A stretch of DNA of 63,323 nucleotides, counting the filler, from Kipferlia bialata (lineage: Eukaryota): NCBI GenBank assembly GCA_003568945.1. It is 5 parts of 5 records of this genome, joined end to end, with 100 filler letters (N's around TTAATTAATTAA, not from the genome) between each part and the next. Parts side by side here need not be neighbours in the genome. Positions count along the whole stretch, not along the records: positions 1 to 14,367 come from BDIP01000827.1; 4 more parts are not named here. The stretch is one strand, 5' to 3'. Below the pieces are notes generated by a model. It had not been told where the DNA came from, searched no databases, and saw nothing but the letters and a program-made list of their open reading frames with translations. Positions 1,711 through 57,379 of this stretch are shown in pieces. Within the stretch, counting starts at the first letter, position 1. Every line of letters starts with the position of its first letter. The position numbers were made by a program, and so were the translations under genes.

Positions 1711-2806
1711 ATGGTGAGTGCATAATAATGAGTGTATGGGGTTGGGATGTATGTTCTTGCCATAGTGATTGTCCTCACATATATCGATACGGCATGTAAC
1801 AATCATGTGAAGTGTGTGATTCTAAGAATAGAAACGTGCAGGGAACTGTACACCGCTTCTTTACTCACTGTAGTCACCTCCATATTTCGGTCTCTCCCAC
1901 TCTCTCTCCCCTTATCTCCTCCTTCCATTCCCTAGCTCTCTTCTGATTCAGCAGGGAATACCGATTCTAGCCATCCGCCTATATGTCTCTCGACGCATAA
2001 TCCCCCCTTCATCTCTCTGCCCCCCCCCCCCTCTCTCTGCCTCTCTCTCTCTCTGTGGCATCCCCCTACATCTCTTTGTATAGGTCTTCTTTCCCTCAGG
2101 GAACTGCTGCCTCCTACTACTCACTCTCTCTCCCTACATTATTGTGTATGTGAGATAGTATGTATTTCTCTCATGCTAGGGAACCGCTGCCTCGTATGTC
2201 GCCCCTTCCAAGCCCAGGTCATTCCTCACAGCCATCAACTGCATGGACGGGAGGTATGCACTGTGTACATTATATAGTATACTAACTGTAATGATGATTG
2301 TTTCTATGTATGTCCCCAACTGCATGGATGGGAGGTATTTTCATACGTATACTATATACTATTAAGTAATATCCTTGTATGTCACACGCTTCTCTACCCA
2401 CTTTCCCTCTGCTCCCCCCCCCAACCTCTCCCTCTAGTATCAAGGCACAGGTCGTACTGTGGTCTATCTCTCCCTATTCTCTCTCTTACCCTCTCATCCT
2501 CTACTACCAGGACCCAGATCCAACTAATCAGATGGATCGTACACTTCTTTGTTTTCACTCCCTCTCTCTCTTTCTCTCACTCTATCTCTCACTCTATCTC
2601 TCTATGCTCCTCTAATACCAGGGCCCAGATCCCACTGATCAGGTGGATGATGGAGAAGTTTGAGGTATGAATATATGATATTATATCACTAATGCTGACC
2701 TCTCTCTCCCTCTCCCTCTATATGTGTGTATATTTACCATTCCAATATATACTATTCCTTATGTCTAACAATAGGGTGACTACGTAGACTCCATCACCGA
2801 GGCTGA

Positions 2807-2842
<36 letters not shown>

Positions 2843-4355
2843 GTGTCGTATATATATATATCTATATGTATTATACTCTAACATATCTAATTATAGGGTG
2901 ACTATGTGGACTCCATCACTGATGATGACCTCTCTATCTTCCTCTATCCCCCTCTCTCTCTATATATATAATGACATATATATGTGTGGGTGTACTATGT
3001 ATATATATCTAACGCCAGGGTGACTATGTAGACTCCATCACTGAGGCAGGGCCTGTCAGGTTCTTCGCCATGGGAGACAGTGCACCCCAGAAGCACAGGT
3101 GGATATAATATATTCCATGCATAACAGATACTGTCTCTCGATAGTGCATGTGTGTATATATGTTATATCCACTCACCCCAGAGACATATATGCCAACATG
3201 ATGGAGAGGATCGACATCAGTGTGCACAAGCACGGGAGCAGGTAGAGGATACATATAGTATAGTATATATATACTATAATATGTACTATATATGTATATA
3301 TATATAGGATAGACATCAGTGTGTACAAGCATGGGAGCAGGTGGGTATTTATATGTATATATTTATTATATATATACTATACTATGTAATATATGTATAT
3401 CTATGTATGGGATCGACATCAGTGTGCACAAGCACGGAAGCAGGTATAGTATCCATATAGGTCTACATTCACAGTTTATCGTCTCTGAGAAAGCACGTTC
3501 TCTCTCTCCACACTCTTAATAGTTCTTAACCCCAGGGTCATCATCATTGCTGCCCATCCATCCTGTGCTGGCAATGTGTGCTGTGACAAGGATCAGGTAT
3601 ATACTATATATATATACTATATTATATAGATACTATATATATATAGTTTATATAGAGTATATATAGTATGCAATGTGTGCTGTGACAAGGATCAGGTATG
3701 TATATTGCTATATGAACTCTCTATATACGTACGTACATATAGTATGTCCCATTAATTACATTCTATGTGTACTGTGACAAGGACCAGGTATGAGATATAT
3801 ATGTGTTGATTAATGCGTGTGATTGTTACTATATAGTTCCATGTATTATTTGCAAGTATGTATATGTGTGTTGTGACAATGACCAGGTATCGTGTGTTCA
3901 CGTCTATCCATATATACATATAGCATCTGATAGCTCTCTAGTAGTATATTTCGAGACTACCACCATATATATATGAATTTTGAAGTTGTATATACAATTG
4001 AATTAGTTGTAACCCCCAGAAGACCCAGCTGCACCAGGCCGTGAGGACTCTCAAGGGTCTGTACCCATCCTGCAGGGTGGAAGGTACTCTCTCTCTCTCT
4101 CTCTCTCTAACTCTAACTCTAACTCTATGGATATTCGTATACCTAGACACATACTTAGACTTCTCGTCTTCTCTCTCTCCCCCTCTACACCCTTAATGCC
4201 AGGTGTATGGGTGTCTCTCTAACTCTACACCCTCCATTCATTTATACATTGGTCGCTCTCTCTGTCCCTCTACACCCTTAATCCAAGGTGTGTGGGTGTG
4301 GCCTGACAGTGGCAAGGACTGGGAGGACGTGGAGGTGGTGGTCATAGCGGAGTAA
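1711..4355 (+). CDS. Putative carbonic anhydrase, prokaryotic beta-CA-like family (Pro_CA_2-like), about 8 exons
   Basis: Spliced product M|GTAASYVAPSKPRSFLTAINCMDGR|AQIPLIRWMMEKFE|GDYVDSITEAGPVRFF..|..ERIDISVHKHGSR|VIIIAAHPSCAGNVCCDKDQ|KTQLHQAVRTLKGLYPSCRVEG|VWVWPDSGKDWEDVEVVVIAE*. Contains the C-x-D-x-R and H-x-x-C zinc ligand motifs of beta-type carbonic anhydrases. The ATG-only first exon at 1711 is inferred. Confidence 0.8.
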
Positions 4356-5013
4356 GATGCACTCTATCATGGCGTCCCTATCTGCCTCTATATTGAAGAG
4401 ACTCTCTACTTGAGAGAGAGAGAGAGATGGAGGTGGCAAGGACTGGGAGGACGTTGAGGTTGTAGTCATCGCAGAGTGAGGGGGAGATAGAGAGAGAGAG
4501 AGAGAGATTAAGGTCGTAGTCATAGCAGAGTAGGCAGACAGATGCTTGATGGTGTATTAATAGACAAGACAATTACCTGAGGAAGTGTGGTTTTAGTATG
4601 GACTCCATAGTATGGAGTACGAATCATACTATGGAGTGTGTGTTGTATGAGATGATTAATGAATTTATGAGAGTTCTCTCTGAGAACTATCAGGCATTGT
4701 GGATACTCTACCATTGATATACGATAGGGCTGATGATCCCAAGTATTCAGCCAAGACCCAGAGTCATGTAATAATTATCATTGCTAACCGGCCTATTGCT
4801 TCCACCAATACTGATGGTGTTGATGATAGTGATTTTCAGCCATTGGGACTTCATCAGCATTGCTGACAGCAACACTACAGTATAGTACATACTCTATTTA
4901 CAACAAGAGTGATATCCTCAGACGGCGGCCACCTCTCACAATCTCCAGTGGAGATTCTCCACTGACACTCTCTCATTCACTGTCTTATAGTCACAGTATA
5001 TATACTAGACCTA

Positions 5014-5818
5014 ATGGATCCAGCAACACTGCGTGAGAGGGCTGTCCACGCCCTCCGCTACTCCTTCCTAGGGGATTCTCTCTCCATGCCTGTGCACTGG
5101 TACTACAGCGTGGCAGACATATACAAGGCATTTGAGGTGGGTTAGTTACCTTCAAAAGCACACATTCACCTAACCCCTTAGAGTATAGAACACCATAGTC
5201 ACCTCTTATGATACAGGGTGGTGTCACCAAGCTGGAGTCCGCCCCCACCCTCCACCCCTCCTCCATCATGTCCCTACACTCCACTGCACATGGGGGGAGA
5301 GAGGGGACAGAGGGAGGTAATAGTGATACTAGGCCTACTAATACTAATACTATTGCTGATGAATACCCCTCCTCCATCATGTCTCCAGAGCACATGGGGG
5401 AAGGCAGGGTCTCTTTGGGAGGTACTACAATATATGTATTGGTAATTACCATAACTATTTTACTAATATATACTGCACATTGGGGCAGAGAGGGTACATC
5501 TGGAGGTAATGACACTAGGCCTAATAATACAGATACTATTGCTGATGAATACCCCGAGGTATACATTTTTCCTATACACCGTAGAATAGTGACACACTAG
5601 TACGTATTGTATGTGATCATAATATTCATAGGGATGGACGCTGCACCTGGGGGTAGGCAGGGTACTTTTGGAGGTATTAGTACCAGTTAGTGGGATACAT
5701 TTATAACTATATGTAGTACTGATTACAGGCACCACGGAGATAGTGGGTGACGTGATACTCAAGGGCAAGAGGCAGTACTGGGGTGTGGCCAACATGCACT
5801 ACCACCAGGGGATGAAGG

Positions 5819-5850
<32 letters not shown>

Positions 5851-7674
5851 TTGATATTGTATACAGAGCTGAATACCCTTTGAATTCAGTGTGATTGAAT
5901 CACTGATTCTAGTGCAGACAGTCGTCATATATACCCAACATGCACTACCACCAGGGGATGAAGGTGGGGGTTGTGTGTGATACAGTGCTACATTAACCAG
6001 TGATCAATAATGATTAATCCGTTATTAATAATCACTGTAGATTATGTGTAATTATACTGACATGCACTACCACCTGGGGATGAAGGTGTATATATTCATT
6101 GTATACAGAGCTGAATTCCCTTTGAAATCCGTGTGATGATATTGCAGACAGTAGACAATCTTCCCAACCTGCACTACCATCAGTGAATGTGCAGGGCTTA
6201 TGAATATTCTTATACATTAATCACTGTACTACAGTCTGTAGATTCTGTGAGATTAGACTGACACATAGGCAGGAGAGAACACCCTCAACCTACAGTGTGC
6301 CAGACTGGTACTCAGGGAGGTGGCACAGGTATCATTGTCAACCAGTCATATTCATTGAGTACTAACTTATCAATATTTACTATTTAGTGATTCAGTTTTC
6401 ATACACTGCCTTAGGTATCTGATACTTTACCTAACACCAGGGCCCCTACAACGCCGACACCTTCCTCTCAGACACATATATGTATATTCACTAGCACTTA
6501 TTATTTACTATTCAACCTATGCAAGGTACTACATTCTCCCTACCACCAGGGCCCCTACAACCCAGACACCTTCCTCGCTGACTACGTCGCCTACATGACT
6601 GCTGACCCCCCTGCATACCATGACACATATGCAGAGTCGTTCCACAGAGGGTTCTTCGACAACATGCAGGGCGGAAAGTACGTTATATTGCGAAGAATAC
6701 TACCCTATACAGTGTAGATGTGCTCTCCACAAGTATTTCTTGTAATTACAGTCTAACTTGTAATATACAAGTTCACTTGCCGATATATCCAGCAAGAACC
6801 TTAGTAGCAGTTACAGTACCGGTGATTCTTACTCTAGGGATCTGCACGAGTGCGGGGCAGCCACGCATGACACAGCATCCATTGGGGGTGAGTAGTGTAT
6901 ATTGTGTAGCACATACAGTATCATAGCATTGAATCACTCTTGACAAGAATCTTGTACATTCACTGATGACACTGTGAAGAGGTGTTGTATGTGTATAATG
7001 AACCTCGTCTCACACTCAGGTCTTGCCACCATAGCACCCCTGGCCCTACCCTCCCTTCTCAGAGGCATGTCTGTAGTAGATGTCCAGAGAGTCTGCCGCA
7101 CACACCTGCACCTTACACACCCATCTGATACTCTTTACAGTGTGTGTGACGACTATGTGAGTCTGATCTCTGAGCTGCTACACATAGAGGAGGGTATAGA
7201 CCCTAGTACAATTGTAGAGGCATACCTCCTCAGCGCATCTCCCACTGCCACACCAGCAGAGTGGATGAAGAGTGCCAAGGACACTGAAGTAGTCGGTGGT
7301 GTCTACAGCCCTGCCTGCTACATATCGGACTCGTGGCCATCCACACTCTACCTGGCATACAAGTACCTACACTCCACTGGTCCAGACTCTGTGAAGCAGG
7401 GTCTCCTTGCCAACGCCAATGTAGGTAAGTGAAAGACGATATTAGTCGCCAAGACGTCAGTCTCTCAGCTGGTAATGGTATTGTACACTCTTACTGAATA
7501 ATTGTAAGACTACTGTATATACATACTAACCCAGGTGGTGACAACTGCCACAGGGGTGCAGTCCTGGGTGTGATACTGGGCCTATGCACTGTGGACACTG
7601 AGGCTGACACTCTCTACTCTGGCCTTGTAGAGCATGACGCCATTGAGAAGGAGATACAGACAGCCATAGAATAA
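5014..7674 (+). CDS. ADP-ribosylglycohydrolase (ARH/DraG/crystallin J1 family)
   Basis: Exons encode FLGDSLSMPVHWYY, HYHQGMK|AGENTLN, HDTYAESFHRGFF, SPACYISDSWPSTLYLAYKY and LLANANVG|GDNCHRGAVLG, matching the GDAL..P and N-x-GGD-x-x-x-RG motifs of this family. Stop TAA at 7672-7674. Confidence 0.88.
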
Positions 7675-8012
7675 GGCCTGTAGAGAGTCTCTACTAGAGA
7701 CACTCTATTATAGAGAACAACTGAGTTGTCCTACGTGTTATACACTGACATAGTATCCAAGCGATTGAGTGGGAGACACGTGCAGCCATAGAATACGAGT
7801 GAATGAGTTACTGTCTACAGAGATTCGGTACACGAGTCCCCAAATTGACATAGCAAGCCAATGATGCGTATCGGTTGTGTCTCCATACATATCCACAACA
7901 AGCAAAAGAATCTCTATCGCAGAAAGAACGAAAACTCCGTCTCTCTACTACTCCCTCTTGACCCACCAAATACTATACCCATGACAGTATATCATACTAT
8001 CTATTCTCTGCT

Positions 8013-12471: not shown

Positions 12472-13049
12472 TCTAATACAAATTGTACATATATACCTCT
12501 TGTCTTTGTGCACCACCATGGCCACATCGATGTCAGACACGGAACGGATGACCTAAGGGTTAGTGTATACGCATACACAGCACATATTAACGGAGAATAG
12601 TTTCATACATTTACAGTACCCTAGGCCGAATGCTTCTTATTAAAGAGAAAGGAATTACATAGGTCTATACACATATAAACCTGTCTGTATCTTCCAGTGA
12701 CGCACATGTCCTTGGGTGCCCTAGATAGAGGACTATGCACACCTATGCACTCTATATATACATGTATATATATACATATATATAATGTATATATACCTGT
12801 CTGTATCTGCCTGTGACACACATGTCCTTGGGTGCCCTAGGAAGATGACTACTATATATACATACACACCCTACATATACGTATATACAGTGTATACTTA
12901 CACACCCTACATATACGTATATACAGTGTACACATATGTACTTGTATGTATATGCATATATACCTGTCTGTATCTCCCAGTCACACACATGTCCTTGGGT
13001 GCCCTGGGCAAAAGACTTTCTATATCTATATGCTCTATATGTCTATGGA

Positions 13050-13086
<37 letters not shown>

Positions 13087-14285
13087 TATACCTGTCTGTA
13101 TCTCCCAGTCACACACATGTCCTTGGGTGCCCTAGGTAGAGGACTACTATATATACTTACACACCCTATATATACATATATACAATATATACATATAATT
13201 ACCTGTCTGTATCTCCCAGTGACGCACATGTCCTTGGGTGCCCTGGGCAGAGAGTCAAACCCATGCTCAAAGCCATCGGCCTTGAGCAGCTCGTTGATGT
13301 ACTCGCCTAGGGGGTTAGAGGAAGACATAAATATATCAGGCTATATGTATACTTGTAGATATCCATGTACCTATCTCTCCCTTGGGCAGCAGGACTATCC
13401 TACAATAATAACCATTTACAAATATTTACATCTACGATACTATTTGTATACATATATATACATGTTCCTATCTCTCCCTTGGGCAGCAGGACATCCCTAT
13501 ATAGAAATATTCATACATTCCATACACGCACATACACGAATAGTAATAATATCAGGGATACATATGTGTACCTATCTCTCCCTTGGGCAGCAGGACATCG
13601 TGTCCGACAAGGGGCAGTACCAGCTGGGACATGTCTGAGTGTAAGAGTAATGTATGTATATACATATATAAGACACTAAAGATGTATATATGTACACTTG
13701 TATACACATAAGAATGATTTAGTACAATCCGGGACATGTCTGGGGTTAGACACCAAATGTAAAGTGAATATATAGTATATATACTATATATAGTATATAT
13801 AGTATATATAGTATATATACTATTCATGTCAATGTATAGGCAGTGACACCCTGAAGTATGTTGATAGAGATGCATATACCTGACTCATCGAAGGGTGTCG
13901 GCTCAGGAACCTCCTCCTCCTTCTCCTCCTCCTTACTCTCTCCCTCTCCCTCCTTCTTCTCTCCCTCTCCCTCCTTCTTCTCTCCCTCTCCCTCCTTGCT
14001 CTCTCCCTCTGTCTCCTTGCTCTCTCCCTCTACCTCCTGCTTCTCCTCAGAGGGTGTGGGGACATGCACAGGCTGAAAAGTGAGGACATACATGTATATA
14101 AATAGACAATTGTACAAATGAAATACTCTAAATAACAATCTATCCATATATACAGTGGGGGTGGGCACAGACACAGGCTGAAAAGTGAGCATATATATGT
14201 GTATAGAGAGAAATGAATATGAAAATAGAATACTCTAAATGACAGTCTCTCCATATATACAGAGGGTGGGGACATGCACAGGCTG
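8013..14285 (-). CDS. PUS7: tRNA pseudouridine synthase PUS7/TruD, C-terminal part, with E/K-rich inserts and RGG tail; 5' end beyond contig
   Basis: Exons QLVLPLVGHDVLLPKGEI|GEYINELLKADG..DMCVTGRYRQ and VRFTLGSSS|YATVVLRSL match the TruD C-terminal motifs (VVLPLPG, GxYR, F-x-L-x-x-S-x-YATxxLRE). Then GGFRGGRGRGGFRGG repeats and last exon GKRSFGNRGDRGGDRAPAAKREQ*. Confidence 0.82.
8713..9890 (-). repeat. Array of partial exon-end copies around one PUS7 tail exon
   Basis: About 11 copies of (plus strand) tacctgaatcc(c/g)ccgct at 8713-9450 and about 5 copies of taggacatcatctg at 9504-9880. Confidence 0.9.
12679..13250 (-). repeat. Five copies of exon end (LP)RAPKDMCVTGRYRQ + GT donor
   Basis: acctgtctgtatct..catgtccttgggtgccct at about 12679, 12795, 12962, 13090 and 13201. 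Confidence 0.95.
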
Positions 14286-14467: not shown

Positions 14468-14520
<53 letters not shown>

Positions 14521-14544
14521 AGGCAGAGAGAGAGACAACCGTAC

Positions 14545-15233
14545 CATGGCTGGAACTGTGAGGCACCACTGCACCGCATCCATACCCACAGAGGTGCCGT
14601 ACTTGGTGGTGATGACTCGCATCACGTCCATGTACATGAAGCGGAGGTAGTCAGCCACCACATCCACCACCCCCAGGCCCAGGCGTTCAAAGGGAGTAGG
14701 GGGCTGCACCTTGATGATCTCCCTACATCTCAATGCATCAGTGTCCATAGGGGTAAGGGCACTATTGGTGAGGGCCCCGTCCAGAAGCAGCTTGAACCTA
14801 GTCAACAGGATGCCATCGGCAGCCTTCCTCCCCCTCATCCGAGCCTCCTCCTTCAACGCAGAGTGCCCCCACGAGGTTGCCCTCCACTCCCCCCCCCTCC
14901 TGCCTGCGATAGTACAGAGCAGTGCGGGTCTTGCAGTAGGATGTCAGCTGGTCTGCCCAGTCATAGAAGGCCTCTACCTTGCTGGTATCCCCTATGTGCC
15001 CCAGGGCGTACCCGGAGTAGGCAGTGCCTGGCCGTCAGGATCATGTTTGACCATGTGAGGGTTATATTCCCACAGAACACTAGAAAGAGAGGAGTGACGG
15101 AATTGTCAGATTGTACTCAGACTATCTGAGTCGGACACATCAGATATACGTGTAATAATTGAAGCATACCGAAATCAAGCCCAACATACACACGCGGGCC
15201 ACTCGAAGAGCTCTCTGAGGGAATCCCCGGCAT
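14545..15233 (-). CDS. HSPA12-like atypical Hsp70, N-terminal part (truncated at contig end)
   Basis: MPGIPSESSSSGPRVYVGLDFG|TAYSGYALG..YCKTRTALYY..SWG..RFKLLL..VVADYLRFM..QWCLTVPAM. The DFGT-x-YSG phosphate-1 loop, KT-x-T-x-L-x-Y, FKL-x-L and W-x-LTVPA are typical of the HSPA12-like clade. Confidence 0.85.
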
Positions 15234-15377
15234 CACTGGTAGTGCTGTCTCTATAGCCTAGAGGGGAGTGTAGTGAAGTCCTTGATGATCACGTAAACTG
15301 TTGACAAGAGGCCGGTATCATTGTATTAGGGCCAGCTGATGATCGGGTAACCTTTCTCTAACACTGTCCCACTTGGG

Positions 15378-18300
15378 ATGCCAGAGCCAACACAGGCTGT
15401 GTCAGCCACGACAAAGGGTGTGCACCTGTGTATCGGGCTGGACATCGGGACCCATTGCAGTGCGGTGGCAGTGAGCCTGTCAACCGAAGGCCGAGTAGAG
15501 GTGAGACACAGACTACAATACTCCCACCCCCACCCCCCGCCACCCTACCTAGATATGTTTTCTCGTGTTTCTATGACTGCCACTTACCGACAGGTGTATG
15601 ACAGCTGGTCAGGCCAGCCCAGCCCCTATGGGAAGGTCCCATCCCACATGACATACAGCTGTAGAGAGGGGGTGTACTACCCTGTCAAGTGGGGACACAC
15701 CTCTTCCCAGGCTACCAGCGATGAGAGCAGTGTACATGTGTCCATGTTCAAGCTACTGCTCGACCCTACGGCTGACCCTGCCCCCCCTCCCCCTGTCCCA
15801 GGTCTGTCCGCAGGGGATATACTGGCTGACTGGCTTAGATACCTCAAGGAGGTGGTGCACAAGAAGGTCACGCGGCAGTGGCAGGGACTGTACACGCTGG
15901 ACACAGCCACATGGTGGGTGTAATCACGTATATCACTCTTTTCATAACGTATACTTCAATGCGTAGTGCCCCTACACGCATACTAAAATGTCAATTACTC
16001 TTGTTCCGTAATTACTCCAGGGAGATTGCTGTTCCCTCCCGGTGGTCCCCCTCGTCCAACCACACTGTACGACAGGCAGCATGCATGGCTGGGTTGGTAC
16101 CACGTCCCTCTGACTTACGGCTGTCTCTGCTTCTGGAGACTGAGGCCGCAGCCCTAGCCCGTGGTGCCCTGCTCGTTGGGCAGAGTCTGTTGGTAGTGGA
16201 TGCTGGAGGGGAGGGCGTAGAGGCGACCCGCATGAGAGTGGTTGAGGGATATGCAGAGGGGGTAACCACCCTATCCACTGACGCTACACACCGCGTGGTT
16301 GTCCCAGCCAAGGATACTGTGGACTCTGTGTTCCTGAGGCACATCACGACACACCTCGGGGCTGGAGCTGAGGAGGCTATGGCAGCTAAGCCTAGGAGTG
16401 TCCGGGGAATCATGGCGCAGTGGCACATAGAGAAGAAGGGACTATCGCTCGACGCTCTGGAGGACGGACTCGTCATAGAGGTATTGTACCCCAATCATAT
16501 ACGTGGGCTGCCTAAACGTACACATCAGTATTTCTCGTTAATACAATTCATGAGTTGGCATGTTTGTGTGCGTAAAGATCGGCTCTCTGATGTCAGATTC
16601 CAAGTAAGATCCTCTCGAAGCTCAGTGAAGAGATGCAAGACCAGCTTGACGAGGACGATGGCATCCTCCTCTCCCTCTCAGACGTGCTCTCCATATACAA
16701 GCCTCACCTGGCTGCGGTCCAATCTGCCATAGAGGAAGTGATGGCACCAGGTCTCAATGTGGACAGGACCGTGCTCGTTGGAGGCTTCTTCAGATCCCAG
16801 TTCATTATGGACCGTGCTATCTCTGGCTACGACGGGAGGACTGGAGCTGTAGCGCACTTCTTAGGTACTCTAGCGCATCATGTTGGTATGTGCACTGAAT
16901 GACGTCTGTTCCTCTTTCCAACACCATGGTTGTGTGCCCACCCAATCACTTACTTCCAGACCCGGCCTTAGCCGTAGTGCTGGGTACATACCTTCATGCC
17001 AAAGACCCCTCTATCCTTGTGTCTACAGCTGAGTCACACCCCGAGACCACCCCTCCGAATATGCTCCGGAGACAGCTCCTGAGGGCACAGTCTGCACATA
17101 GGGTTGTTAACAGGCAGCTGCACAAGGAGAGAGTGTCAATAATCACGCTTCTGGACGAAAGGCAACGTGCTGAGCGTAACCTAAAGAACAGACTGAGAGA
17201 CCTTGAGGGACAGCTTCAGATGGCAAGAGAGGCTCGTACTGTTGTTGATAGGGAGCTTCGTAAGGAACAACTCCTGGTTGCCACACTTCAGAACGAGAGA
17301 CAGCATGCTGAGAGTGGCCTAAAGAACAGAGTAACAGACCTTGAGGGACGGCTCCAAAAGGCCAGAGAAGCCAGTACAGCTGCTAATAGGCAGCTACAGA
17401 AGGAGAAACGCTTGGTGGCCACACTTAGACAAGGGAGACAACGTGGTGATAGTGACCACGAGACAAGGGTGGGTAACCTTCAGAGACAGCTGCAGAAGGC
17501 AGAAGCTGATAGTGCTTCCTCAGAAGCGAGTCTTCATACTGCCATTAGTGCCCTGGAGAAGAGACATAAGGACAGCAAGAAGCCCCAGCCCACACCCGCC
17601 CTATTGCCACTTGGTATCAGTGGTGGATATCAAGAGAAGGTATCAACAGTATACCTGGCCAGTACTTGCTAATGAAACTACTCACATACTCTATCCCACT
17701 GGTACGATGCAGCTTCTGTTGACGCTTTCTCATGTCAGAGAGCAGCTGCAACGGGGCCTCTCACACCAATGTCAGTTACCATCGCCTTCCGTTACGGTCT
17801 ATGCAGCAAGGTGTCCAGCAGTATTAAGGGAAGCAAGGTGGGTTTCAGGCATGGTATAGACAGTGTCAATATGACTTAGAAACACACACCAATTGACCTC
17901 TATCTCGTTGACTATTAATCTTGGTACATTGGTACCACCAGGGTATGAGGGCAATCACACGTGGCTCCGATCTATGGACCAAGCTTGTCAGACAGTGGGC
18001 AGATGTGACTTCATCACCCGGGGTCCTGTCTAGGAAGTCCGACCTCGCTAAGGGGTTAGAGGTGCAGGTGTATGCCGTGTTAGAGGACTACCTTTCCCTC
18101 AAGGACGACAGTGCACAGATACCACTCATGCCCCCTGAGTGCGAGTCCCTCCTCAATGTAGCACGGTGCATCCCGACCTCCCCCTCCCACATGGAACAGA
18201 GACAGGCAGTCATGGGTATGCTGACTTCCCCCAAGTCTTCCGTCCCCATACGTTCTGGTGTACTCGACAGGGATGCTGCCTACACTACCCGGCTGGAAGC

Positions 18301-20398
18301 AGTGCTCTCGCCATACATGGAAGACCACGCTGATGTTGCTGGAAAGATCCTGGCTTCAGCAAGGTACAGTATTAGAATGGTAGCTATACTATTGTCTCTT
18401 TTGGTTTGTGCGTGACGGATACAATTCATCGTGTACCTTGTTTCTCATGTGTAGACTCTGCCTGTACCAAGTGTATGTGATTGGGTACTCTGTGTACCAC
18501 CCAACCCCGAAGGAAGTCAAGTCTGACCTAGAGAGGTAAGTGATCATTGGTGTACGCCTAGATCTGCACAACACCTCGTTCACCAAGTGGATATGCCCAG
18601 CTATACCAGTGCCTAAGTAACGGGTGGATAGAGGACGGTGCCGAAGAGGTGGCAGCAACAGGGCCGTCCAACGTGACAAGCTACGAGTTCATAACAGTAC
18701 GGCCCGGTATGTGTCAGAGAGTGAGACTTTAGAGTCTGGGGTCAGTACCACTTCTGAACAGGACTTATTGTATATGTGATCATATCAACACCAGGTTTAC
18801 GCAATGGTGAGACTATTGTGCTTGGACCCGAGGTCGTTATGAGGAGGACCGTTAGAGAGAGACGCAAGCGAGTAAAAGTGAGGCTCAGCCTCATAGAACA
18901 GCGCCTTGAGACCCTAGAGAGCGGATTGGATGGAAGAGAGATAGTAAAGAGAGAGGAGGGGGTTAGCAGCGTCACCAGAGAGAGTATTGTAGAAGACAGC
19001 ACTAAGATGCCCTCTACCACCATGAGGCTTGAGTCCCCAGTATGTCAGGCCATCAGGGATCCCATGGCAGAGATAAGTTTCAGCCTGCGCCCGATCAACA
19101 GACTGACCCCTAAGTCACTGGACGAGAGCTGCAGTCGTATTGTTACCCTTTTCGCACGCATGGTTGACCCCTCTCAAGGAAGCTCTGTGCCCCTTACCGA
19201 GAGCCAGCTCATGGTGAAGCAGTTAGCCGAGGCCATATATGAAAAAGCATGTCGCAAGAGTGCGTCCTCCCACCTATATGGACTGCTGCTCAGAAAACTC
19301 AAGGACAGAAGAGATTTTCTAGCCGTCTTCCCTGACGAGTACACCAGCAGCGACGGCGGCTTTCCCCCATTCTTCCATGGCTTCCAACACGAGCTGACAG
19401 CCACGAAGACCAGATTAGAGAGGGCGCTGGGCAAGGCAATGGCCGAGTCAACATCCAACCGGCGCATCTGTAACCCCGAACGTCAGCAAGCGGTATGTGT
19501 TGTTTGGAAGGATTAGTCAGCCGGTATACGGTGACACGATGTGTGTGTATGTCTTTGTCTGTATCACTTCACATCTGACTTGAGTCAGTGGTGTTGACAC
19601 AACCATCTGACTCTTCAGGTAACAGAGTATATTTGGCGCCTGAAAGCTTTGCTTGAGCCTGGGGAGGGAACCAGTGCCAACCCCCTTATTCTTCATGAGA
19701 TATCCTTTATCCGGCTCAAGCAGCACATTGTCAACTACACCAAGAGAGAGTTCAAGAACATGGCCCTTATGGATACTATTCTCCTTTCTGACGACTCTGT
19801 CTCAGAGGCAGAGAACCAACACCGCCGTCTCCGCTCCAGGCAGCACTTTTTCGGTAACATCAGATTCATCGGAACCCTCTTCAACCACAACTTCCTGGCC
19901 TGTCGGGTTGTGACAAGTACCTGCCTCTGCACCCTGGCTCTACAACCAGTGCTTACACATGCAGTGCACCGCTATATCAATCACGATATCCTGTCCAGTG
20001 GATCCATGGCCGCCCTGAGGGCCCAGGCCCAGAAGGGCAAGGTGCAGGTCCCCCCCTTCCACACCGTCCACCACATCCAGCAGTTCGCAGACACCTTCGG
20101 AGAGGAGATCTACAAGGTGGACGAGGCTTTCGACTACCAGTTCAACTACGACTCAATCGAGGGTGCCACAATACTTCTGGAGTCCGTTGGGTTTAAGCTC
20201 TGCCAGGCCAAGTATCGTAACATGCAGCTGTTCCCAGGTCACTCCACCTTTACCGTGGAGAACCTACTCACCCTCGTGATTGATGCCTTCCGGGGCATCG
20301 TTAGTGACGAGAAGCACCCCTACTACATCAGATCTCTGCTTGAAGAGACTCTCAGGAAGCATGAGAAGGGATACGTCGACCCCTCCAAGTGCATGTGA
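15378..20398 (+). CDS. Large multidomain protein: divergent HSPA12-like ATPase + coiled coil + C-terminal MIF4G-like domain
   Basis: IGLDIGT, FKLLL, ADWLRYL, IAVPSRW, ETEAAA, VVDAGG and VLVGGF motifs, heptad-rich 17040-17580, then INRLTP..AIYEKA..LYG..FFGNIRFIGTLF..SIEGATILLESVGFKL (MIF4G). The junctions I checked, from 17613 to 19619, are phase-compatible. Confidence 0.72.
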
Positions 20399-20765
20399 GC
20401 GTCCCAAAGGTGGGCGCTGTGGTTCTCGGCTGTCCAACAAGAATGGTACCCTTTACGGCTACACACGATTCTCTCAGCGACTACTGAGAGCTATGTGTGG
20501 GAACAATAGATCTTCGGTAGGGTGGCAATTTGTGAGATGAAGAGAGTCTACTACTGAGTGGATATCGGAGAGTCCGAAAATGATTCGGAGCCGTTTAGTC
20601 TCTAAGGCACTGAGGCTAGCAGATCTACCGTCGTCTTCTTTTGTGCCAACCTACAGGAGGCACCGAGACCCAAGGCCAAACACACACCTGCCAGTAGGGT
20701 AATCATCAACCAAGGGTAGCCAGTAGTAAGCTGAGAGAGAGTCTGTCTAGTCTGTATAGTCAGGT

Positions 20766-21097
20766 ATGCTGAGCTCCTTCAGCTACAAGGACGAGATGGA
20801 GAAAGACAGGGGGGGTACCCCTAGGGGGAGCATGAGGCCAGCGCCCCCTTCCAGAGACCACACTCCTAGGGGATCTGCCTACCCCTCCCAGGCACCGTCC
20901 AGAGCTGGTAGTCCTGGCCCCCAGAGACCCCCTCCCCCTGCCTTCATACCCCCCAGGCCCCTGTACCAGAGCTCCCTACCTCTCTCTCAGCAGCAGATGG
21001 GGTGGCTGGTGTCCCAACTCCCATGCCCCATAGAGGGTATGGCGCAGCACGGGACTGATATTGCGAACAGAGGGGCAGATATGGTGGTCGAGCGGAG
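20766..21097 (+). CDS. Proline-rich hypothetical first exon, runs into an assembly gap
   Basis: ORF MLSSFSYKDEMEKDRGGTPRG..ADMVVERR with coding-like composition, followed by a GT donor-like site, pyrimidine tract and N gap 21203-21310. Confidence 0.45.
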
Positions 21098-21369
21098 GTG
21101 TGGGCTCTTGTCTATGTGTACTCCCCTTTCCCCCTCCCTCCCCTCCCCCCATCACTCTCACACTTCATACATACTACCAACTCTCTCTCTTCTCCCCCCC
21201 CCNNNNNNNNNNNNNNNNNNNNNNNNNNNNNNNNNNNNNNNNNNNNNNNNNNNNNNNNNNNNNNNNNNNNNNNNNNNNNNNNNNNNNNNNNNNNNNNNNN
21301 NNNNNNNNNNAATTTTTTTTTTTCCGTTTTTTTCCCCCCCCCCCCCCCCCCTCCCCCCCTCACCGCAGT

Positions 21370-24300
21370 GACCCTTCCACCGTCAAGGGCAGTCTTGTGG
21401 TCAGGGGCAACCAGATGCTTGTGGAGCTGGCCAAGACCCTCAACGTGGGGTACAAGGCAGTGGGTGAGCTGGTCGTGGCATCCAGCCCAGAGGAGCTGGT
21501 CGACCTGAGGAAGATCTACGAGCAGGGTGGGTTTTGGAGTAATTGGAAGTGATTGTCCTCTCTCTCAGTGTTTTCCCTACTATATATATATACGCTTATG
21601 CATTAGGCCTTGCTAAGGGCATCTGCCACCCACTCTCTGTTCTGAGTATACACAATTGTGTGTTCTGTGCTTAACCACCAGGACTCGCCAAGGGCATTGA
21701 GCTGGAGTGGTGGGACGCTGAGAGGATGTACGCTGAGGAGCCACACCTGGCCCCTGGTCTAGTAGGGGCCATCAATGCACCCACAGCCGGTGTCATCAAC
21801 CCCTACGAGGTATGGACTCTCTCTTCACCCTTCCCTCTCTCTCTCAATCTCTCTTTCACACCCACCCACACACTCTCTCTCTCTTCCTTCTCTCTGTCAG
21901 TGTCTCATCCCCAGCTTGTGTACAAGAGTGCCGCCTGTGCCGTCCTCAACGGATGCCACCTGGCCACAGCAACAAAGTGCGGCACATTATGTATATATAC
22001 TTTGATACTATTTCACTACTGTCCATCGTCTACTGAAGTGCTGGTCTGTCTCTCACCCCAGGTTCCTGTCTGCCTCTCTGGTGCCTGGCTCTGATGGCCA
22101 GAGACTGGTCCACACCGACAAGGGCGACTACTGGTGCAGGTACCCATGTCACTACACACTCAGTGACATGCCATACTGTCTATACATACCCTCACCCCAG
22201 ATACCTTGTCAACAGTGCTGGTCTCTATGCCGATGATGTTGCCAGGGGCACAGAGGGAGTGGAGGGTGCCGAGGGATGGGAGATCAGGCCAAGGAAGGGA
22301 GAGGAGTACGTGCTCGACAGGAGCGTGGCCACACGCTGTCCATCCAGGTTCGTTTATCACACACACACCATCTCTCCCTCACTCTCACCGTCACTCTCTC
22401 TCTCTCTCCTTCTTACCCTCCAGGATCATCTTCCCCATGCCTGATCCCGTGACCAAGACCAAGGGCACCCTGCTCATCCCCACAGTGGATGGGACATGGC
22501 TCGCTGGACCCACAGCTGACATGGTGCGTGTATGTGTATATATAGATATTGTGTGTATGTATTTGTCCCCATCACCAGTGCTGACACCTAGGTGACCGAC
22601 AAGACCGACACGGCCACCTCCAACGAGGGCCTGAAGAAGGTGTTTGGTCTCGTCCGTAACCTCTGTGACAAGGTCGGCCCCTGGGACATCATCTCCTCCT
22701 TCGCCGGTCTGAGACCCGCTGCATACAGACTGGACGACAAGCCCGGCACCAACGACTTCATCATCGAGAGGCACGGCACTGCTGTGCTGGCCGCTGGCAT
22801 CCAGTCCCCAGGCCTCACTGCCTGTCCTGCCATTGCTGAGAGGGTCATTGCCCTGCTGACCGAGGGTGGCCTGGACACAGCCACCCCCAAGGCAGGGTTC
22901 CAGCCTGCCCTGCACGGAGGGGCAGAGGGAGGCATCTCCAGGCTCAGCGACCTGACTGAGGAGCAGCAGAGGAGCAGGTGTGGATGCAGTAGCTGATGTA
23001 GTGTCTATCTCTTTGTATGTCTAACTCCCAGGGCTGCCGCTGACCCCCGCTACACCAAGGTGGTGTGTCAGTGTGAGGGAGTGACAGAGGGCGACATCCA
23101 CAGGGCCATTGACCTGGGCGCCAAGTCTCTGGACGGAGTCAAGTTCCTCACAAGGGCTAGGTATGTATTTTTATTGGTCACTCTCTCTCTCTCTCTCTCC
23201 AAGTCTCCCTCTCTCTCACCCTAGGATGGGACCCTGCCAGGGAGGCTTCTGCACAGAGGGTATCATGGGGATCCTGGCTGAGAGGCTCAACATCGGCCTC
23301 GACAAGGTGGGATCACCACTCCATAGTGCTTACATATTATATGTGTATGTATACATGTATGTATGTATCTGACCCCAGGTGTCCAAGATGGGAGCTGACT
23401 CTGTCCTCTCTGTGGGTGAGATTGGCACACACATCGAGGCCCCAGTGCCAGTGGAGGTGGGCACATGTAGTGTATACATTACACACACACTCATCCATAT
23501 ATACACCATGCATCCCCCTGACCCCTTAGGCCAAGATTGCCGCCACTGAGCTCGAGGGCCAGGCCGACGCCCAGTCAACCCTGGACTCTCTCTTCGACAC
23601 ACCCATAGACACAGTGGTTGTGGGCGGGGGTGCAGCCGGTCTCAGTGCCGCCGTGGCTCTTAAGAAGCAGGGGGTGGAGAGGGTTGTCGTGCTCGACAGG
23701 AACACTGCCGGTGGCGGTGTCCTGCTACAGTGCATCCATGCCGGGTTTGGTCTCAGGAGGTACAAGGAGGAGCTGACAGGGCCCGAGTATGCAGAGCGCC
23801 TCAGTGCCGAGTGCCGCGAGTCTGGGAGTGAGGTCTACTACGAGGCCTTCATCCTGGACATTGCACACGAGGAGGGCGTGGAGACCCCCTTCTCCCTGTC
23901 CTGTGTGTTTGGGGGCAAGGGCATAGCCACCCTCAAGTGCAGGAGTGTCGTCTACACCGCAGGGTGCAGGGAGAGGACCAGGCACACTATCAGGATCCCA
24001 GGTGGAGTCTCTACTGTTACTACCAACCCTTTGGTATATGGATTATATCCCCCTCACCCCCAGGTACCCGCCCCAGTGGTGTGTACACTGCCGGCCTGGC
24101 CCAGAAGCTCATCAACTCAGGTGGCCAGCTGGTGGGCAGGAAGGTTGTCATCCTAGGCAGTGGGGACATTGGCCTGATCATGGCTAGACGGAGTGCTCTG
24201 GAGGGGGCTGAGGTGGTGGGTGTGTACGAGCTGCTGGGCAGGTGCAGCGGCCTCGAGAGGAACAAGGTGCAGTGCCTGGATGACTTCAACATCCCCCTGA

Positions 24301-25642
24301 CTGTGTCCAGCACCGTCACCCACATCTACGGACACCCCCACATCACTGCCGTGGACATATCCCCTGTGGACCCAGAGACACTGAGGCCTGACCTGACCAA
24401 GGCCAAGAGGGTGGAGTGTGATGCCCTGATGCTCAGTGTGGGACTCACCCCTGAGACATCCCTCCTCAACACAATGCAGGTGCCACATATAGTAATATAG
24501 TATTCTATCTATACCGTGGAGACACACTCATCTTCTCTCCCACTCTGTCTCTCTCCCTCCCCCTCACCCCCCAGGTCACCATGCACCCCAGGACCCGTGG
24601 CCCCTGTGTTGACTCCCAGCTCATGTCCCTAGATGTCGAGGGCCTCTTTGTGGCTGGCAACGCCCTCCAGATCCACGACCTGGCAGATGCCGCAGCTGAG
24701 GAGGCAGAGAGGGCCGGCAAGAGCTGCGCCTCCTACCTCAAGGCCAAGGTGGCTGGGACTGTGCCCGCCAGAGAGGGTATGCTCTCGGTCGAGACGGGAG
24801 AGGGCGTCATCTACGCGGTCCCCAACCGCGTAATCCCCTCTGCCCTCGCTAGGGTGTCCTTCAGGGTCAGGAAGCCCATGTCCAACTGTCTGCTGACAGT
24901 GTCTGCACACACCCCCGAGGGAGAGGGAGAGAGTGAGCCTGTGGTGGTTGGCCAGAGGACCGTCCCCCATGCCGTGCCTGGTGAGATGGAGACTGTCATT
25001 CTGGCACCCAAGAAGATGGCCGGCCTCTCCCCCTCTGCCGTCCTCAAGGTGTCTGCCGTTGAGCAGCCAGACGCCACCCCAGCCGAGCCCCTCCCTGAGG
25101 GACACACTAGGGTGGTGCGTACATGCGTCAGGTGCCCTAGGGGGTGCAGGGTGACTGTGGTGTCCAGTGGTCCAGACATCGAGGACATTGTATCTATCAG
25201 GGGCAACTCCTGTCCCAAGGGCAGGGCCTTTGTCATCCAGGAGCACGTACTGCCCCTCAGGTGCGTGTATAGTGTCTATATAGAATATATATTGCTCATA
25301 GTACACTACCCCTTACCCTTATCCCCAGGGTGTTCAGCAGTGCAGTGCCTGTCGTGGGTGGGACTGAGACTAGGTGTCCTGTTAAGCTCAGTAAGGGCAT
25401 CCCCACCTCATCATTCCAGGCTGTTATCGACAGGTAGGCCCTGTATACCATATGAGTTGATGAATATGATCCTACATATAGTTCTATGACGTCTCTTTAT
25501 GTGGTCGAGTATGGCTCACCCCAGCATCCACGCCGTCCCCCCCCTGACTGCCCCTGTGTCAGTGGGAGATGTCATAGTCACAGACGTGGCAGGGTGCGAG
25601 GGAGTGGATGTCCTCGCCACTAGGAACATCCCTGTTCAGTGA
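21370..25642 (+). CDS. Anaerobic glycerol-3-phosphate dehydrogenase fusion: FAD oxidoreductase (GlpA-like) + BFD-like [2Fe-2S] + pyridine nucleotide-disulfide oxidoreductase + DUF1667-like Cys domain; N-terminus in gap
   Basis: [117 protein letters not shown]-like, [31 protein letters not shown]; stop TGA at 25640-25642. Confidence 0.92.
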
Positions 25643-25999
25643 GTGTGATACCGATAGGCACCTATCTGGTAGTGAGGGCAAGATCCCGTGTCAATAGAAT
25701 GTATAGATACTCATGTTCGGAGCAGTTTTCTTAGATTTCCGAGATGAAGGGTCATTATGGAGGTGTTATTAACAGGCACTGTTGTGAAGAGATACTACAA
25801 CACGATCATTCTTCTGCAAATGCGGCACTTGAAATCTTAACGTTTGTAGAAACACCATAAACCCCTTGTGCTATACGGTGAGCGGTCTGGTTCGTCGATG
25901 CGCGATCTCCCCTCTCTACAACTATACTGTTGAGGCCCTCCTGTACATTGCGCGTAGACCCCTATCTCGACAGCTGAAGTGGAGCTGTACTCACGCACA

Positions 26000-28285
26000 A
26001 TGGCCACCCCGGCAGTGGCCCCACCAGGGGAGGAGACCCCACCCGACAACCCCACCCCTACTGTGCCTATATCTGAGGGAGAGGAGGAGGAGGATGCATC
26101 CGAGCCCCCCCTGCCCATCGAGCAGTGCCCATCCACATTCCCCATGAAGGAGACGTCCCTGCTGACCATGCCCAAGAGGTAGGGTGCCGGGTATACAGAT
26201 ACCACTACACGGTCGGGTATAGCATAGTCAATGGCCCCCCACACGTTCCCTGCTGGCTCCCCCTCCTGCTTCCCCCTCAATGCCTCCTACTAACCCCCAG
26301 GGTGTATGTCCCCTCCTCTAGGAACTGTCTCTGGTGCCAGAAGTTCTGTCTGGGTGTCATGTTCTTTGAGTGCAGTGTCCTCTTCGCCCTGGTCCTTGTC
26401 CTGGGTCTGTTTGTGTTCATCACAATCGATCTGGCAAGGGCAGTGCCAAGGTTAGTGTGTATGAGTCCAGACTGTTGAGTCTGGGGACTATTGTATTGAG
26501 CTATATTTATCCATGCCTATCTGACCCCCTCACACTCCCCCTCCCCTGACCCACTAGGGATGTCCCCATCCAGGTTGCCTCTATGGGGGATGAGCTATTT
26601 GCCCTTGGCGACCAGACAGACGGGGTGCGTCACTCTTCCTCCCTTTCTCTCTCTCACTCTCTCTTATAACCCACTCTCTCTCTCTTCCCTTCTGCCCATC
26701 ATTCTCTCACCCTCCAGCTCTTCTGGTTCCTCCAGCTCAGTGACCTCCATCTGAACGCTGGTGGGTGTCCCTTTGGATACTCTATTTATGTCCTCTAAGA
26801 GGACCTCTTTCTTAGATGAATAGAGACCTATTAGGTCTCTCAGAGTGAATATACTCTCTCTCTCTCTCTCCCCCCTCCCCCTCCCTCCCCACCTTACCTT
26901 TCAGAGCGCAACCCCTTAGCCACCATGAACTTTGAGTATCTGGTGGACAACGTCATACCAATCCTGTCCCCCCACTTCAATGTGGTCACAGGTACCTCTC
27001 TCTCTCCCCCTATCTATCTCCCTCTCTTCCCCCCCCCCCTCTTTCTGTTTTCTCTTCCATCCCCCCCCCACCCCAGGTGACATATCCGACTCCCGGCCTG
27101 AGACCCTCACCGGAGTGGCCTTTGGGTTTGTGCCTCTGGAGGAGGACTGGGTCCTGTACGAGGACATCCTAGAAGAGAACCTCCTCCTGGACCCATATTA
27201 CTGGGTGGACGTGAGGGGGAACCATGGTACGATGGGGTGATGTAGTAGTATATAGTGTAATGGTCTGGCTTGAGTGTATATCTTTCTCTTCCTTTTCTTT
27301 CTTTCTCTCTCTCTCACTCAATCCAGACACATACTCTGTGGACAGCTTCGAGTCTGAGTTCAACTACTACTGCAGTTACTCGGCCTTTGCCAGACTCCCC
27401 TTCATGTGCAACCACACCAGCATAGCAGACAAGTGAGTTCTGTGAATCACTAATATTCCTTCTCTGTGTGTATTGGGTCTCACTGTCAGTTACTCCCCCT
27501 CCCTCTCCCTCCCCTCCCACTAACCCCCAGGCCTGACCACTCCCACATGAACTCTGCCGTCTCCCTTGGTATGGGAGACACTGGGGTGGCCCTGCACGCT
27601 GCATTTGACTACCCTGAGGACGCAGAGATAGATATCCCTTGGGCAACCAGGCTGATATCAGCCGTCACAGTGCCCCTTACGGTGAGTAGTACACATACAC
27701 CTAACTATATATAGTGTCGCTCTCTCTCTACGCCCTCATCCCAGGATTCAGAGATTGAGCAGCGCCTGATTGTGGTTGAGTACGACTCCCCCATATCAGT
27801 CACATACCCAGACCCAGTCACCTCCACCCCCACCACCACATCTCTGTCAATGCCCACCAGCCTACTCGGTATAGACCTGAGTGGGTCGCTGTGGTCGCCC
27901 TTCTCATACTTTGCCATTTCAGACGCCGGTATCATCGACAACATAGGCCGCATCCTGCCAAATGTGAGTATGTATAGTATGTAAAGTACTAATGTGAGTA
28001 TGTATAGCATGTGTGCATCTCTCAGTGGTCAGACATCCTCTATTATATATTGTCTACATACATATATCCCCCCCTGACCTCCAGGTGAGAGTGGACATGG
28101 AGACCCCCTGCGCTGATCTTGCTGTCCTCATTGACGACCCCTCGCTCAGTGACGCATGCCCCTCCCCCCTGCTGATGTCCTTCTCCCACTTCACCATATC
28201 CTTCATGAGCAACCCAGACACACTCCTCAAGCCTCTTCTGGCATCTGGCGTCACCACCCACCTCGGTACGGCCATTCATATAATT

Positions 28286-28317
<32 letters not shown>

Positions 28318-28830: not shown

Positions 28831-28831
28831 T

Positions 28832-37815: not shown

Positions 37816-37865
37816 TTAGTCGAGCTCCTCAACGGTGGGGCCGGCGCCGGCAGTGGGAGCGGGGT

Positions 37866-37897
<32 letters not shown>

Positions 37898-45572: not shown

Positions 45573-45615
<43 letters not shown>

Positions 45616-48258: not shown

Positions 48259-48296
<38 letters not shown>

Positions 48297-52337: not shown

Positions 52338-52370
<33 letters not shown>

Positions 52371-53080: not shown

Positions 53081-53114
<34 letters not shown>

Positions 53115-57336: not shown

Positions 57337-57379
<43 letters not shown>

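What the first reader, a model, noticed from the sequence alone, without database searches (positions are those of the whole stretch)
4310..4533. Carbonic anhydrase C-terminus repeated three times with all three stop codons
Live end: GGC AAG GAC TGG GAG GAC GTG GAG GTG GTG GTC ATA GCG GAG TAA. Copy at 4435-4479: GGC AAG GAC TGG GAG GAC GTT GAG GTT GTA GTC ATC GCA GAG TGA, six differences, all silent including the stop. Copy at 4513-4533: GTC GTA GTC ATA GCA GAG TAG. The copies end exactly at the stop, not at a splice site, so the phenomenon tracks coding-sequence boundaries. This is the cleanest evidence that ghosts were under protein-level selection.
Basis: seen in the sequence. Interest (0 to 1): 0.9.

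Follow-up and report, generated by a model that had tools for sequence, protein, structure and literature searches.

The report
Old alleles fossilised beside live exons
In a free-living flagellate, a gene's last codons are repeated twice in the untranslated tail with only silent changes, one of dozens of such dead copies nearby that likely are ends of other alleles picked up by recombination, which would be a record of hidden sex inside a single genome.

Summary
Confirmed. The gene is KIPB_004035 of Kipferlia bialata, a putative carbonic anhydrase (PF20393). Its end (4311-4355, TAA) is repeated at 4435-4479 (TGA) and 4513-4533 (TAG); all 8 distinct differences are silent. One spliced RNA contig carries all three in order, so the first stop is live and the copies lie in the 3' UTR. 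The locus is one case of a wider habit: in 7 hand-built gene models, 33 of 76 introns hold 67 scored copies of the adjoining exon end. Their dN/dS against the live exon is 0.12 (0.075-0.19), and 0.076 between copies; tandem duplication with neutral decay gives about 0.35 in simulation. Most copies cannot be translated (10 of 64 in frame and open), and the few replacements look random, stops included. So most of the divergence arose while both versions were coding. Most likely the copies are ends of other alleles, about 20-25% apart at silent sites, moved into dead positions by exchange between homologous chromosomes; a clonal model did not reproduce the ratio. No second strain was found, so this step is inferred. 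The arrangement resembles human splice-junction minisatellites; the silent-site signature was not found in print.

The parts
1711..4355 (+). Putative carbonic anhydrase gene, 8 coding exons: 1711-1713, 2180-2253, 2622-2664, 3019-3098, 3182-3241, 3536-3596, 4020-4083, 4288-4355
   Evidence: Exon model translates to P0001 = KIPB_004035 exactly; PF20393 121 bits against cut-off 30
4288..4355 (+). Live last exon, AAG acceptor, TAA stop
   Evidence: RNA-type contig joins exon 4020-4083 to 4288 (loose end at 4285, record 11)
4433..4479 (+). Dead copy 1 of the last 15 codons, TGA stop, in the 3' UTR; 6 silent differences
   Evidence: carried colinearly in the RNA contig
4511..4533 (+). Dead copy 2 of the last 7 codons, TAG stop, in the 3' UTR; 4 silent differences; two further codons upstream would be replacements
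4412..4427 (+). GA tract just before copy 1
   Evidence: Sequence; shared junction context with copy 2
4490..4507 (+). GA tract just before copy 2
   Evidence: Sequence
4356..4578 (+). 3' UTR as far as the RNA-type contig reaches (contigs cannot show the true end)
   Evidence: record 11
4171..4214 (+). Acceptor-side copy in the last intron: intron end, CAG and 12 bases of the last exon; skipped in the RNA contig (below the scoring threshold, not among the 67)
2317..2334 (+). Donor-side copy of exon 2 end, 1 silent difference
2513..2537 (+). Acceptor-side copy of exon 3 start, 2 silent, 1 replacement (P30Q, invariant in homologues)
2775..2922 (+). Two acceptor-side copies of exon 4 start (2775-2803, 2897-2922), 3 silent differences
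3306..3443 (+). Two donor-side copies of exon 5 end (3306-3340, 3410-3443), 3 silent, 1 replacement
3670..3886 (+). Three donor-side copies of exon 6 end (3670-3695, 3765-3787, 3864-3886), 3 silent, 2 replacements
12681..13141 (-). Comparison array: four copies of the end of exon 13306-13203, 14 silent and 1 replacement, mosaic
7945..7960 (-). Second stop-anchored copy in the window, after the gene ending at 8013

Best explanation
The two repeats are dead copies of the gene's last codons in its 3' UTR, and they most likely are the ends of other, formerly working alleles that recombination between diverged homologous chromosomes left beside the live one. Shown: the copies sit in cis, the first stop is used, such copies flank many exons, and they differ from the live exon and from each other mostly at silent sites. 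Inferred steps: (1) a short duplication of about 110 bases across an exon boundary founds an array; it is tolerated because only the exon-side splice site, or the first stop, is used. (2) The population carries alleles about 20-25% apart at silent sites whose introns and UTRs have little likeness left, so exons are the only good pairing sites. (3) In rare cells with two haplotypes, an exon end pairs out of register with a copy; unequal crossover, conversion or one-sided invasion then writes one allele's live exon end into a dead position, or pushes the resident end outward. (4) Once dead a copy decays at random, but is replaced often enough that about 70% or more of its silent differences predate death. 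The copies would have no function of their own.
For: 4-fold sites differ at 63 of 268, 0-fold sites at 38 of 1264, and the N/S rate ratio is 0.14-0.17 in each base-change class, so mutation bias does not explain it. dN/dS 0.119, none of 5000 bootstraps at or above 0.5; copy versus copy 0.076 over 37 pairs. Simulated duplication plus decay through the same detector: mean 0.34-0.37, lowest 0.19 in 900 runs. Toy population model: clonal exchange stays at 0.54-0.61 at all five rates; exchange between lineages gives pS about 0.2 with dN/dS 0.19-0.04 at N*c of 4 or more. Replacements are no milder than random (BLOSUM -0.61 against -0.69, P 0.40; 4 of 41 are stops) and hit conserved columns, as expected after death; dead-phase decay accounts for about 13 of 90 silent differences. 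Silent distance shows no order along arrays (15 against 14) while replacements tend to rise outward (11 against 4, P 0.06); 3 of 7 informative site pairs show all four combinations. Six columns hold three synonymous or near-synonymous codons beyond the stop column (one search lists 8 three-state columns, 5 fully silent). Free ends are shared within arrays (56% of 39 pairs within 3 nt against 21%), and replacements lie nearer the free end (P 0.044). Context from papers: metamonads lack NHEJ and fornicates lost Rad51A and keep two Dmc1 (PMC8516963 section 8); Dmc1 tolerates mismatches (abstract openings); silent diversity of 0.20 and exon-located crossovers exist in Schizophyllum commune (abstracts).
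Against: No second allele was seen: the one sample shows no other letters at 4005-5250 and a metagenome scan gave only 41-51% identical homologues. Live copies are richer in G/C than their copies at silent differences (57 against 15; P 0.0006), so the copies are not exchangeable alleles; an added bias is needed (GC-biased conversion or sorting; live covered ends GC4 0.69, uncovered ends 0.59, copies 0.56). The required silent diversity is at the top of the known range. 16 of 67 copies are identical to the live exon and one shares 26 intron bases, so some are plain recent duplicates. The loosest frame-free test was not significant (0.378, P 0.13); it became so with a pair statistic (P 0.018) and a stricter scan (0.49 against 0.32, 0 of 2000 permutations). 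Six of seven gene models are by hand and were chosen because they show copies.
Confidence: 0.6

Rival explanations
1. The donors were not alleles of one hyperdiverse population but a sister lineage: an old hybrid or repeated introgression supplied diverged exon ends, later made homozygous.
For: Gives the same low dN/dS without needing extreme standing diversity; copies are patchy, 44 exon-like local repeats in contig 1 against 0 and 3 in two contigs of like size; a donor of lower GC would explain the 57:15 bias.
Against: Three codon states at several columns and five different versions in one array need more than two donors; per-copy silent divergence runs continuously from 0 to 0.56.
Confidence: 0.15
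2. The live exon end changes quickly at silent sites (toward G/C) and each copy is a snapshot left by successive duplications in one lineage.
For: Live ends are G/C-richer than copies and than uncovered exon ends.
Against: Would need silent change several times the neutral rate (inference). Only 9 of 63 polarised changes are live-only; no nested order (15 against 14); four-combination pairs. Intron flanks are not frozen (identity 0.67 and 0.61 against controls 0.61 and 0.57).
Confidence: 0.08
3. The copies are translated now, through alternative splice sites, recursive splicing or template jumping, and so are under present selection.
For: Low dN/dS; 54 of 64 intronic copies keep GT or AG.
Against: In frame 20 of 64, as by chance (P 0.79); in frame and open 10 of 64; four stop codons among copies; the stop copies have no acceptor with a branch motif in front (sequence) and the RNA contig reads straight through them with no joint listed. 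Contigs drop rare forms, so minor use is not excluded.
Confidence: 0.07
4. Clonal back-up: copies swap with the live end inside one chromosome lineage, and damaged copies are purged when they become live.
For: Shared junctions and mosaic arrays show exchange among units; fornicates rely on homologous repair.
Against: In the toy model clonal exchange never went below dN/dS 0.54, and fast exchange erased the silent divergence. The model is simple (whole-unit exchange, N 400).
Confidence: 0.05
5. Ordinary tandem duplication across exon boundaries followed by neutral decay, as in splice-junction minisatellites; the silent pattern is chance or reader's choice.
For: Geometry is exactly that of tandem duplication (39 of 40 downstream copies hold the exon's 3' end, 24 of 24 upstream copies its 5' start); units are about 109 nt and add about 126 nt each to intron length. 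It probably does found the arrays.
Against: Expected 42 silent of 111 distinct changes, observed 68; 0 of 200000 draws; simulations.
Confidence: 0.03
6. Assembly artefact: diverged haplotypes stitched in tandem at GA and TA repeats.
For: Short-read assembly; GA tracts lie before both copies; both runs are one sample; no raw reads were laid.
Against: A separately assembled DNA contig spans the live end and copy 1, the next overlaps it by 30 nt, depth is even, and one RNA contig spans all three.
Confidence: 0.02

Closest known systems
Splice-junction minisatellites: human F7 IVS7 37-bp VNTR, lamin B2 100-bp, PDGF 81-bp, CBS, 6-16 (PMC1557585, abstract and passages)
   Same: First unit spans an exon-intron boundary; splice sites are reiterated in the intron; only the authentic site is normally used.
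   Different: Here 33 of 76 modelled introns carry them, on both donor and acceptor sides and also at stop codons; 1-5 scored copies; the intron part is barely more alike than unrelated introns while the exon part is 97% identical at replacement sites and about 77% at 4-fold sites. The passages read describe no silent-site bias.
Recombination in the hypervariable fungus Schizophyllum commune (PMC4209137 and PMC4576712, abstracts)
   Same: Silent diversity up to 0.20; crossovers fall in exons because they are the stretches still alike. This is the population setting my explanation needs.
   Different: Those abstracts describe in-register crossovers, not dead copies. Diversity and sex are measured there and only inferred here.
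Intron gain by tandem or segmental genomic duplication (PMC3265369 abstract; listings)
   Same: Short tandem duplication that touches splice signals without harming the protein.
   Different: No new intron is shown; copies lie inside existing introns or the UTR and lengthen them.
Mutually exclusive duplicated exons (recalled)
   Same: Tandem exon-derived copies with low dN/dS.
   Different: These are exon halves with one splice site, mostly out of frame, some with stops; the terminal ones lie behind the used stop.
Homology-facilitated illegitimate recombination in transformable bacteria (recalled; search listing only)
   Same: One end joined by homology, the other not; can add a diverged allele's end beside the resident one.
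   Different: Independent events should give independent break points, but free ends are shared within arrays, which favours exchange among existing units.
PF20393 Pro_CA_2 putative carbonic anhydrases
   Same: 121 bits; 38-52% identity to 16 homologues; C22, D24, R26, H94, C97 invariant.
   Different: Split by 7 introns; the last four residues extend past most homologues; activity untested.

Membership tests
PF20393 putative carbonic anhydrase | Profile score above the curated cut-off | tested here: met
   121.1 bits against 30
PF20393 putative carbonic anhydrase | Beta-class CxDxR and HxxC zinc-site motifs (motif meaning recalled) | tested here: met
   C22, D24, R26, H94, C97 invariant in 17 of 17
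PF20393 putative carbonic anhydrase | Clear solved relative | tested here: inconclusive
   Best PDB hit 3las_A, E 0.035
PF20393 putative carbonic anhydrase | CO2 hydration activity | not testable with these tools
   No assay
Splice-junction minisatellite (F7 IVS7 class) | First unit spans an exon-intron boundary and repeats the splice site | tested here: met
   63 of 64 intronic copies anchored at the adjoining boundary, 54 of 64 keep GT or AG; the stop copies of this finding are anchored at a stop, not a splice site
Splice-junction minisatellite (F7 IVS7 class) | Whole units alike along their length | tested here: not met
   Flank identity 0.67 and 0.61 against controls 0.61 and 0.57; 15 of 16 exon-identical copies match for 9 bases or fewer into the intron
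Splice-junction minisatellite (F7 IVS7 class) | Only the authentic site is used | tested here: inconclusive
Splice-junction minisatellite (F7 IVS7 class) | Copy number varies between individuals | not testable with these tools
   One sample only
Mutually exclusive duplicated exons | Each copy is a whole exon with both splice sites | tested here: not met
   1 of 64 reaches near both ends of its exon
Mutually exclusive duplicated exons | Frame kept when the copy is used | tested here: not met
   10 of 64 in frame and open
Retro-copies from spliced RNA | Copy crosses an exon-exon junction | tested here: not met
   0 of 67
Intron gain by tandem duplication | Duplicated segment becomes a new intron | tested here: not met
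   All 67 copies lie in existing introns or UTRs of the models; no outgroup to date introns
Exchange between alleles of a hypervariable species | Silent diversity of 0.1-0.2 among living alleles | not testable with these tools
   No second strain in the runs or metagenomes
Exchange between alleles of a hypervariable species | Recombinant mosaics | tested here: inconclusive
   3 of 7 informative pairs show all four combinations; repeat mutation could do the same

The most novel reading that the evidence does not exclude
Kipferlia introns and UTRs are a genome-wide archive of displaced alleles: out-of-register recombination between haplotypes about a quarter apart at silent sites keeps parking exon ends beside the live exon, so population diversity and hidden sex in a metamonad can be read from one assembly.
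Probability: 0.45. Interest if true: 0.92.

Novelty: new variant of a known kind. Interest (0 to 1): 0.78.

Why it matters
Sex has not been seen directly in any metamonad (PMC8516963, passage). Dead sequence that carries the mark of protein selection is hard to explain without exchange between separate lineages, so these arrays would be a direct, countable trace of it. With 124,912 introns annotated (PMC5874029) the test can be run genome-wide on public data and could yield diversity and exchange-rate estimates from a single strain. It would also show a way introns grow (about 126 nt per copy) and how a reduced spliceosome picks the exon-side site among intact decoys. Practical point: such copies can mislead gene predictors and dN/dS-based exon finders.

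Tried and rejected
No whole genome is held, so nothing could be counted genome-wide. Reads were laid only on 4005-5250; the upstream copies have no read-level check, and only contigs, not raw reads, were available. No RNA holder was on record as such; X2 is RNA by guess, though its GT-AG joints fit. The table gives 0 other letters for the DNA piece that sits at copy 1's spacing where the RNA piece gives 5; I read this as a display matter and cannot confirm it. Bins 4425-4508 show no depth because repeats were skipped there. A metagenome scan for another Kipferlia strain gave 80 loci at 41-51% identity and one 83-base nucleotide hit. Homologue columns do not show that replacements are working variants. 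Origin from cDNA rejected. A present paralogue as donor is not indicated: one Kipferlia protein among 17 hits, one DNA contig on the last exon. First frame-free test negative because 1064 of 2737 columns were intron flank. Pfam found nothing for five short exons of three other genes, so their names are not established. Dropped rows: 3 of 70 segments (2 low-complexity, 1 counted twice). One terminal exon was mis-ended by a base and its UTR was checked apart, with no copy. The donor-anchored print of three copies was one base off and was not used. Paper searches without a matching description; the library lacks most subscription papers, and no supplements were read.

Full report
Observation. The live end is at 4311-4355, copy 1 at 4435-4479 and copy 2 at 4513-4533. 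Copy 1 differs at six bases, five third positions and TAA to TGA; copy 2 differs at four from each of the others; all are silent. Behind the stops the three share one G and nothing more. Both copies follow a GA tract. Copy 2 is not a chance match (1 of 2000 shuffles). Extending copy 2 by two codons adds V143I and E144K, which weakens this locus alone from P about 4e-4 to about 0.01-0.02.

The gene. A search with exon 2 returned KIPB_004035 of Kipferlia bialata. My eight-exon model translates to it exactly. It scores 121 bits on PF20393 and has 16 homologues at 38-52% identity with the cysteine, aspartate, arginine and histidine positions invariant. The window is five contigs joined by N spacers. 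The genome paper reports 124,912 introns; the words heterozyg-, duplicat-, ploid and meio- do not occur at word starts in its main text (passages and methods section).

In cis and not translated. Two runs of one sample hold the stretch. The RNA-type contig joins exon 4020-4083 to 4288 and continues colinearly to 4578 through both copies at the expected spacing. The DNA contigs cover 4177-4507 and 4478 onward at depth 410 and 420, with no other letters listed. So the first stop is live and the copies are in the UTR. The same contig skips a CAG decoy acceptor at 4202 for the AAG at 4287. These are contigs, so rare forms are invisible.

A wider habit. I built seven gene models by hand with open frames and GT-AG introns, one GC donor aside. 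They were chosen because they show local repeats; the other genes of the window were not modelled. A codon-blind scan of each exon against its neighbouring introns and UTR found 70 segments, against 0.8 per pass for foreign introns; 67 were kept. They lie in 33 of 76 introns and 2 of 5 UTRs. Downstream copies hold the exon's 3' end (39 of 40), upstream copies its 5' start (24 of 24); units are 92-121 nt in the middle half; none crosses an exon junction. Copies are patchy: 44, 3, 18, 0 and 4 exon-like local repeats in the five contigs, tracking TA-rich DNA (rho 0.73).

The selection signal. Of 136 differences 98 are at third positions and 90 are silent; dN/dS is 0.119 (bootstrap over 41 arrays 0.075-0.19). 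Counting each change once gives 68 of 111 silent, against 42 expected if the copy decays neutrally while the live exon changes only silently. Without the two stop copies it is 82 of 128. The verified gene alone gives 20 silent and 4 replacements. Copies compared with each other give 0.076. The detector does not make the bias: simulated duplication and decay gives 0.34-0.37, lowest 0.19. Nor does mutation bias: the ratio is 0.14-0.17 in each base-change class. A test without reading frames was at first not significant (P 0.13), because much of each segment was intron flank; with a pair statistic P was 0.018, and with a stricter scan 49% of mismatch pairs were a multiple of three apart against 32% expected, while AT-rich repeats showed no excess.

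Past, not present. If the copies' splice sites were used, 20 of 64 would be in frame, as by chance, and 10 would be open. The 41 amino-acid changes include four stops and are no milder than random; some hit invariant or well-kept columns, others variable ones. If every replacement arose after death, matching decay explains about 13 of the 90 silent differences, and the live exon about as many again (the second figure is inference). So some 70% of the silent divergence arose while both versions were coding.

Where were they coding? No present paralogue is indicated. In a toy population model, exchange between live and dead copy within a clonal lineage kept dN/dS at 0.54-0.61; exchange with, or displacement by, another lineage's allele gave pS near 0.2 and dN/dS from 0.19 down to 0.03 once N times the exchange rate reached 4, close to the observed 0.22 and 0.12. 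The arrays fit this: no silent order with distance (15 against 14), a weak outward rise in replacements (11 against 4, P 0.06), three of seven informative pairs in all four combinations, eight columns with three codon states of which five are fully silent, shared free ends, and replacements nearer the free end. Intron flanks are only slightly more alike than unrelated introns, though fast slippage in TA repeats could also cause that. Fornicates lack NHEJ and Rad51A and keep two Dmc1 genes (PMC8516963 section 8), and Dmc1 tolerates mismatches (abstract openings); this makes the route plausible but does not show it.

Against. No second allele has been seen. Live copies are G/C-richer than their copies at silent differences, 57 to 15 (P 0.0006), which pure allele swapping does not predict; copies resemble ordinary exon ends (GC4 0.56 against 0.59) and the live covered ends are raised (0.69), so a conversion or sorting bias must be added. 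The diversity needed matches the highest on record (0.20, abstract). Sixteen copies are identical to the live exon, so plain duplication also goes on. Samples are small: one window, 41 arrays.

Known kin. The layout matches human minisatellites whose first unit spans a splice junction (PMC1557585, abstract and passages; lead from earlier finding e1-7810567). It fails that class on whole-unit likeness and adds acceptor-side and stop-side copies. It is not mutually exclusive splicing, retro-copying or shown intron gain. Eight paper searches found no description of silent-diverged exon-end copies or of these repeats in Kipferlia; the library is incomplete and no supplements were read.

Verdict. 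I put about 0.9 on the divergence having arisen mostly under coding constraint, 0.75 on exchange between diverged lineages in some form, and 0.6 on alleles of one highly diverse population. New variant of a known structural kind, with an apparently undescribed cause; interest 0.78.

Noticed in passing
window 4170-4204: The intron 3' end (CT tract, then a TACACCC-TTAAT-like motif and CAG) matches many other contigs: summed depth about 360,000 against 420. A long shared acceptor motif or a repeat family.
   Followed up: no
window 4200-4287: The used acceptor of the last intron is AAG; an upstream CAG decoy with 12 exon bases is skipped in the RNA contig.
   Followed up: partly
window 34887-34709 (-): In my model the live exon ends in a GC donor while its copy downstream has GT; not checked on RNA.
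   Followed up: partly
window 7960-7945 (-): A second stop-anchored copy, with the last sense codon turned into a stop.
   Followed up: partly
window 9434-8587 (-): An 850-base intron made almost wholly of copies of one exon end; about ten visible, five scored.
   Followed up: partly
window 14468-28831 and 43378-57714: Two contigs with many introns but almost no copies (3 and 0 exon-like local repeats); the HSP70 gene at 37816-40135 (-) also shows none. What sets copy-rich regions apart is unexplained.
   Followed up: partly
window 5014-7432: ADP-ribosylglycohydrolase-family gene (PF03747) with homologues at 47-55% identity in metagenome contigs; next to the carbonic anhydrase gene. Both may be of prokaryotic origin; no tree was built.
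   Followed up: no
window 14072-8013 (-): Gene with a glutamate-rich middle and an RGG tail; resemblance to TruD/PUS7 is recalled, not confirmed by Pfam on single exons. Exons 11519-11484 and 11317-11276 are whole-exon duplicates that both keep frame.
   Followed up: no
window 34011-33655 (-): One codon reads Trp in the live exon and Cys, Cys, Tyr in three copies, possibly true allelic variation.
   Followed up: no
window 17105-17506: Coding repeat of period 138 bases inside a long exon.
   Followed up: no
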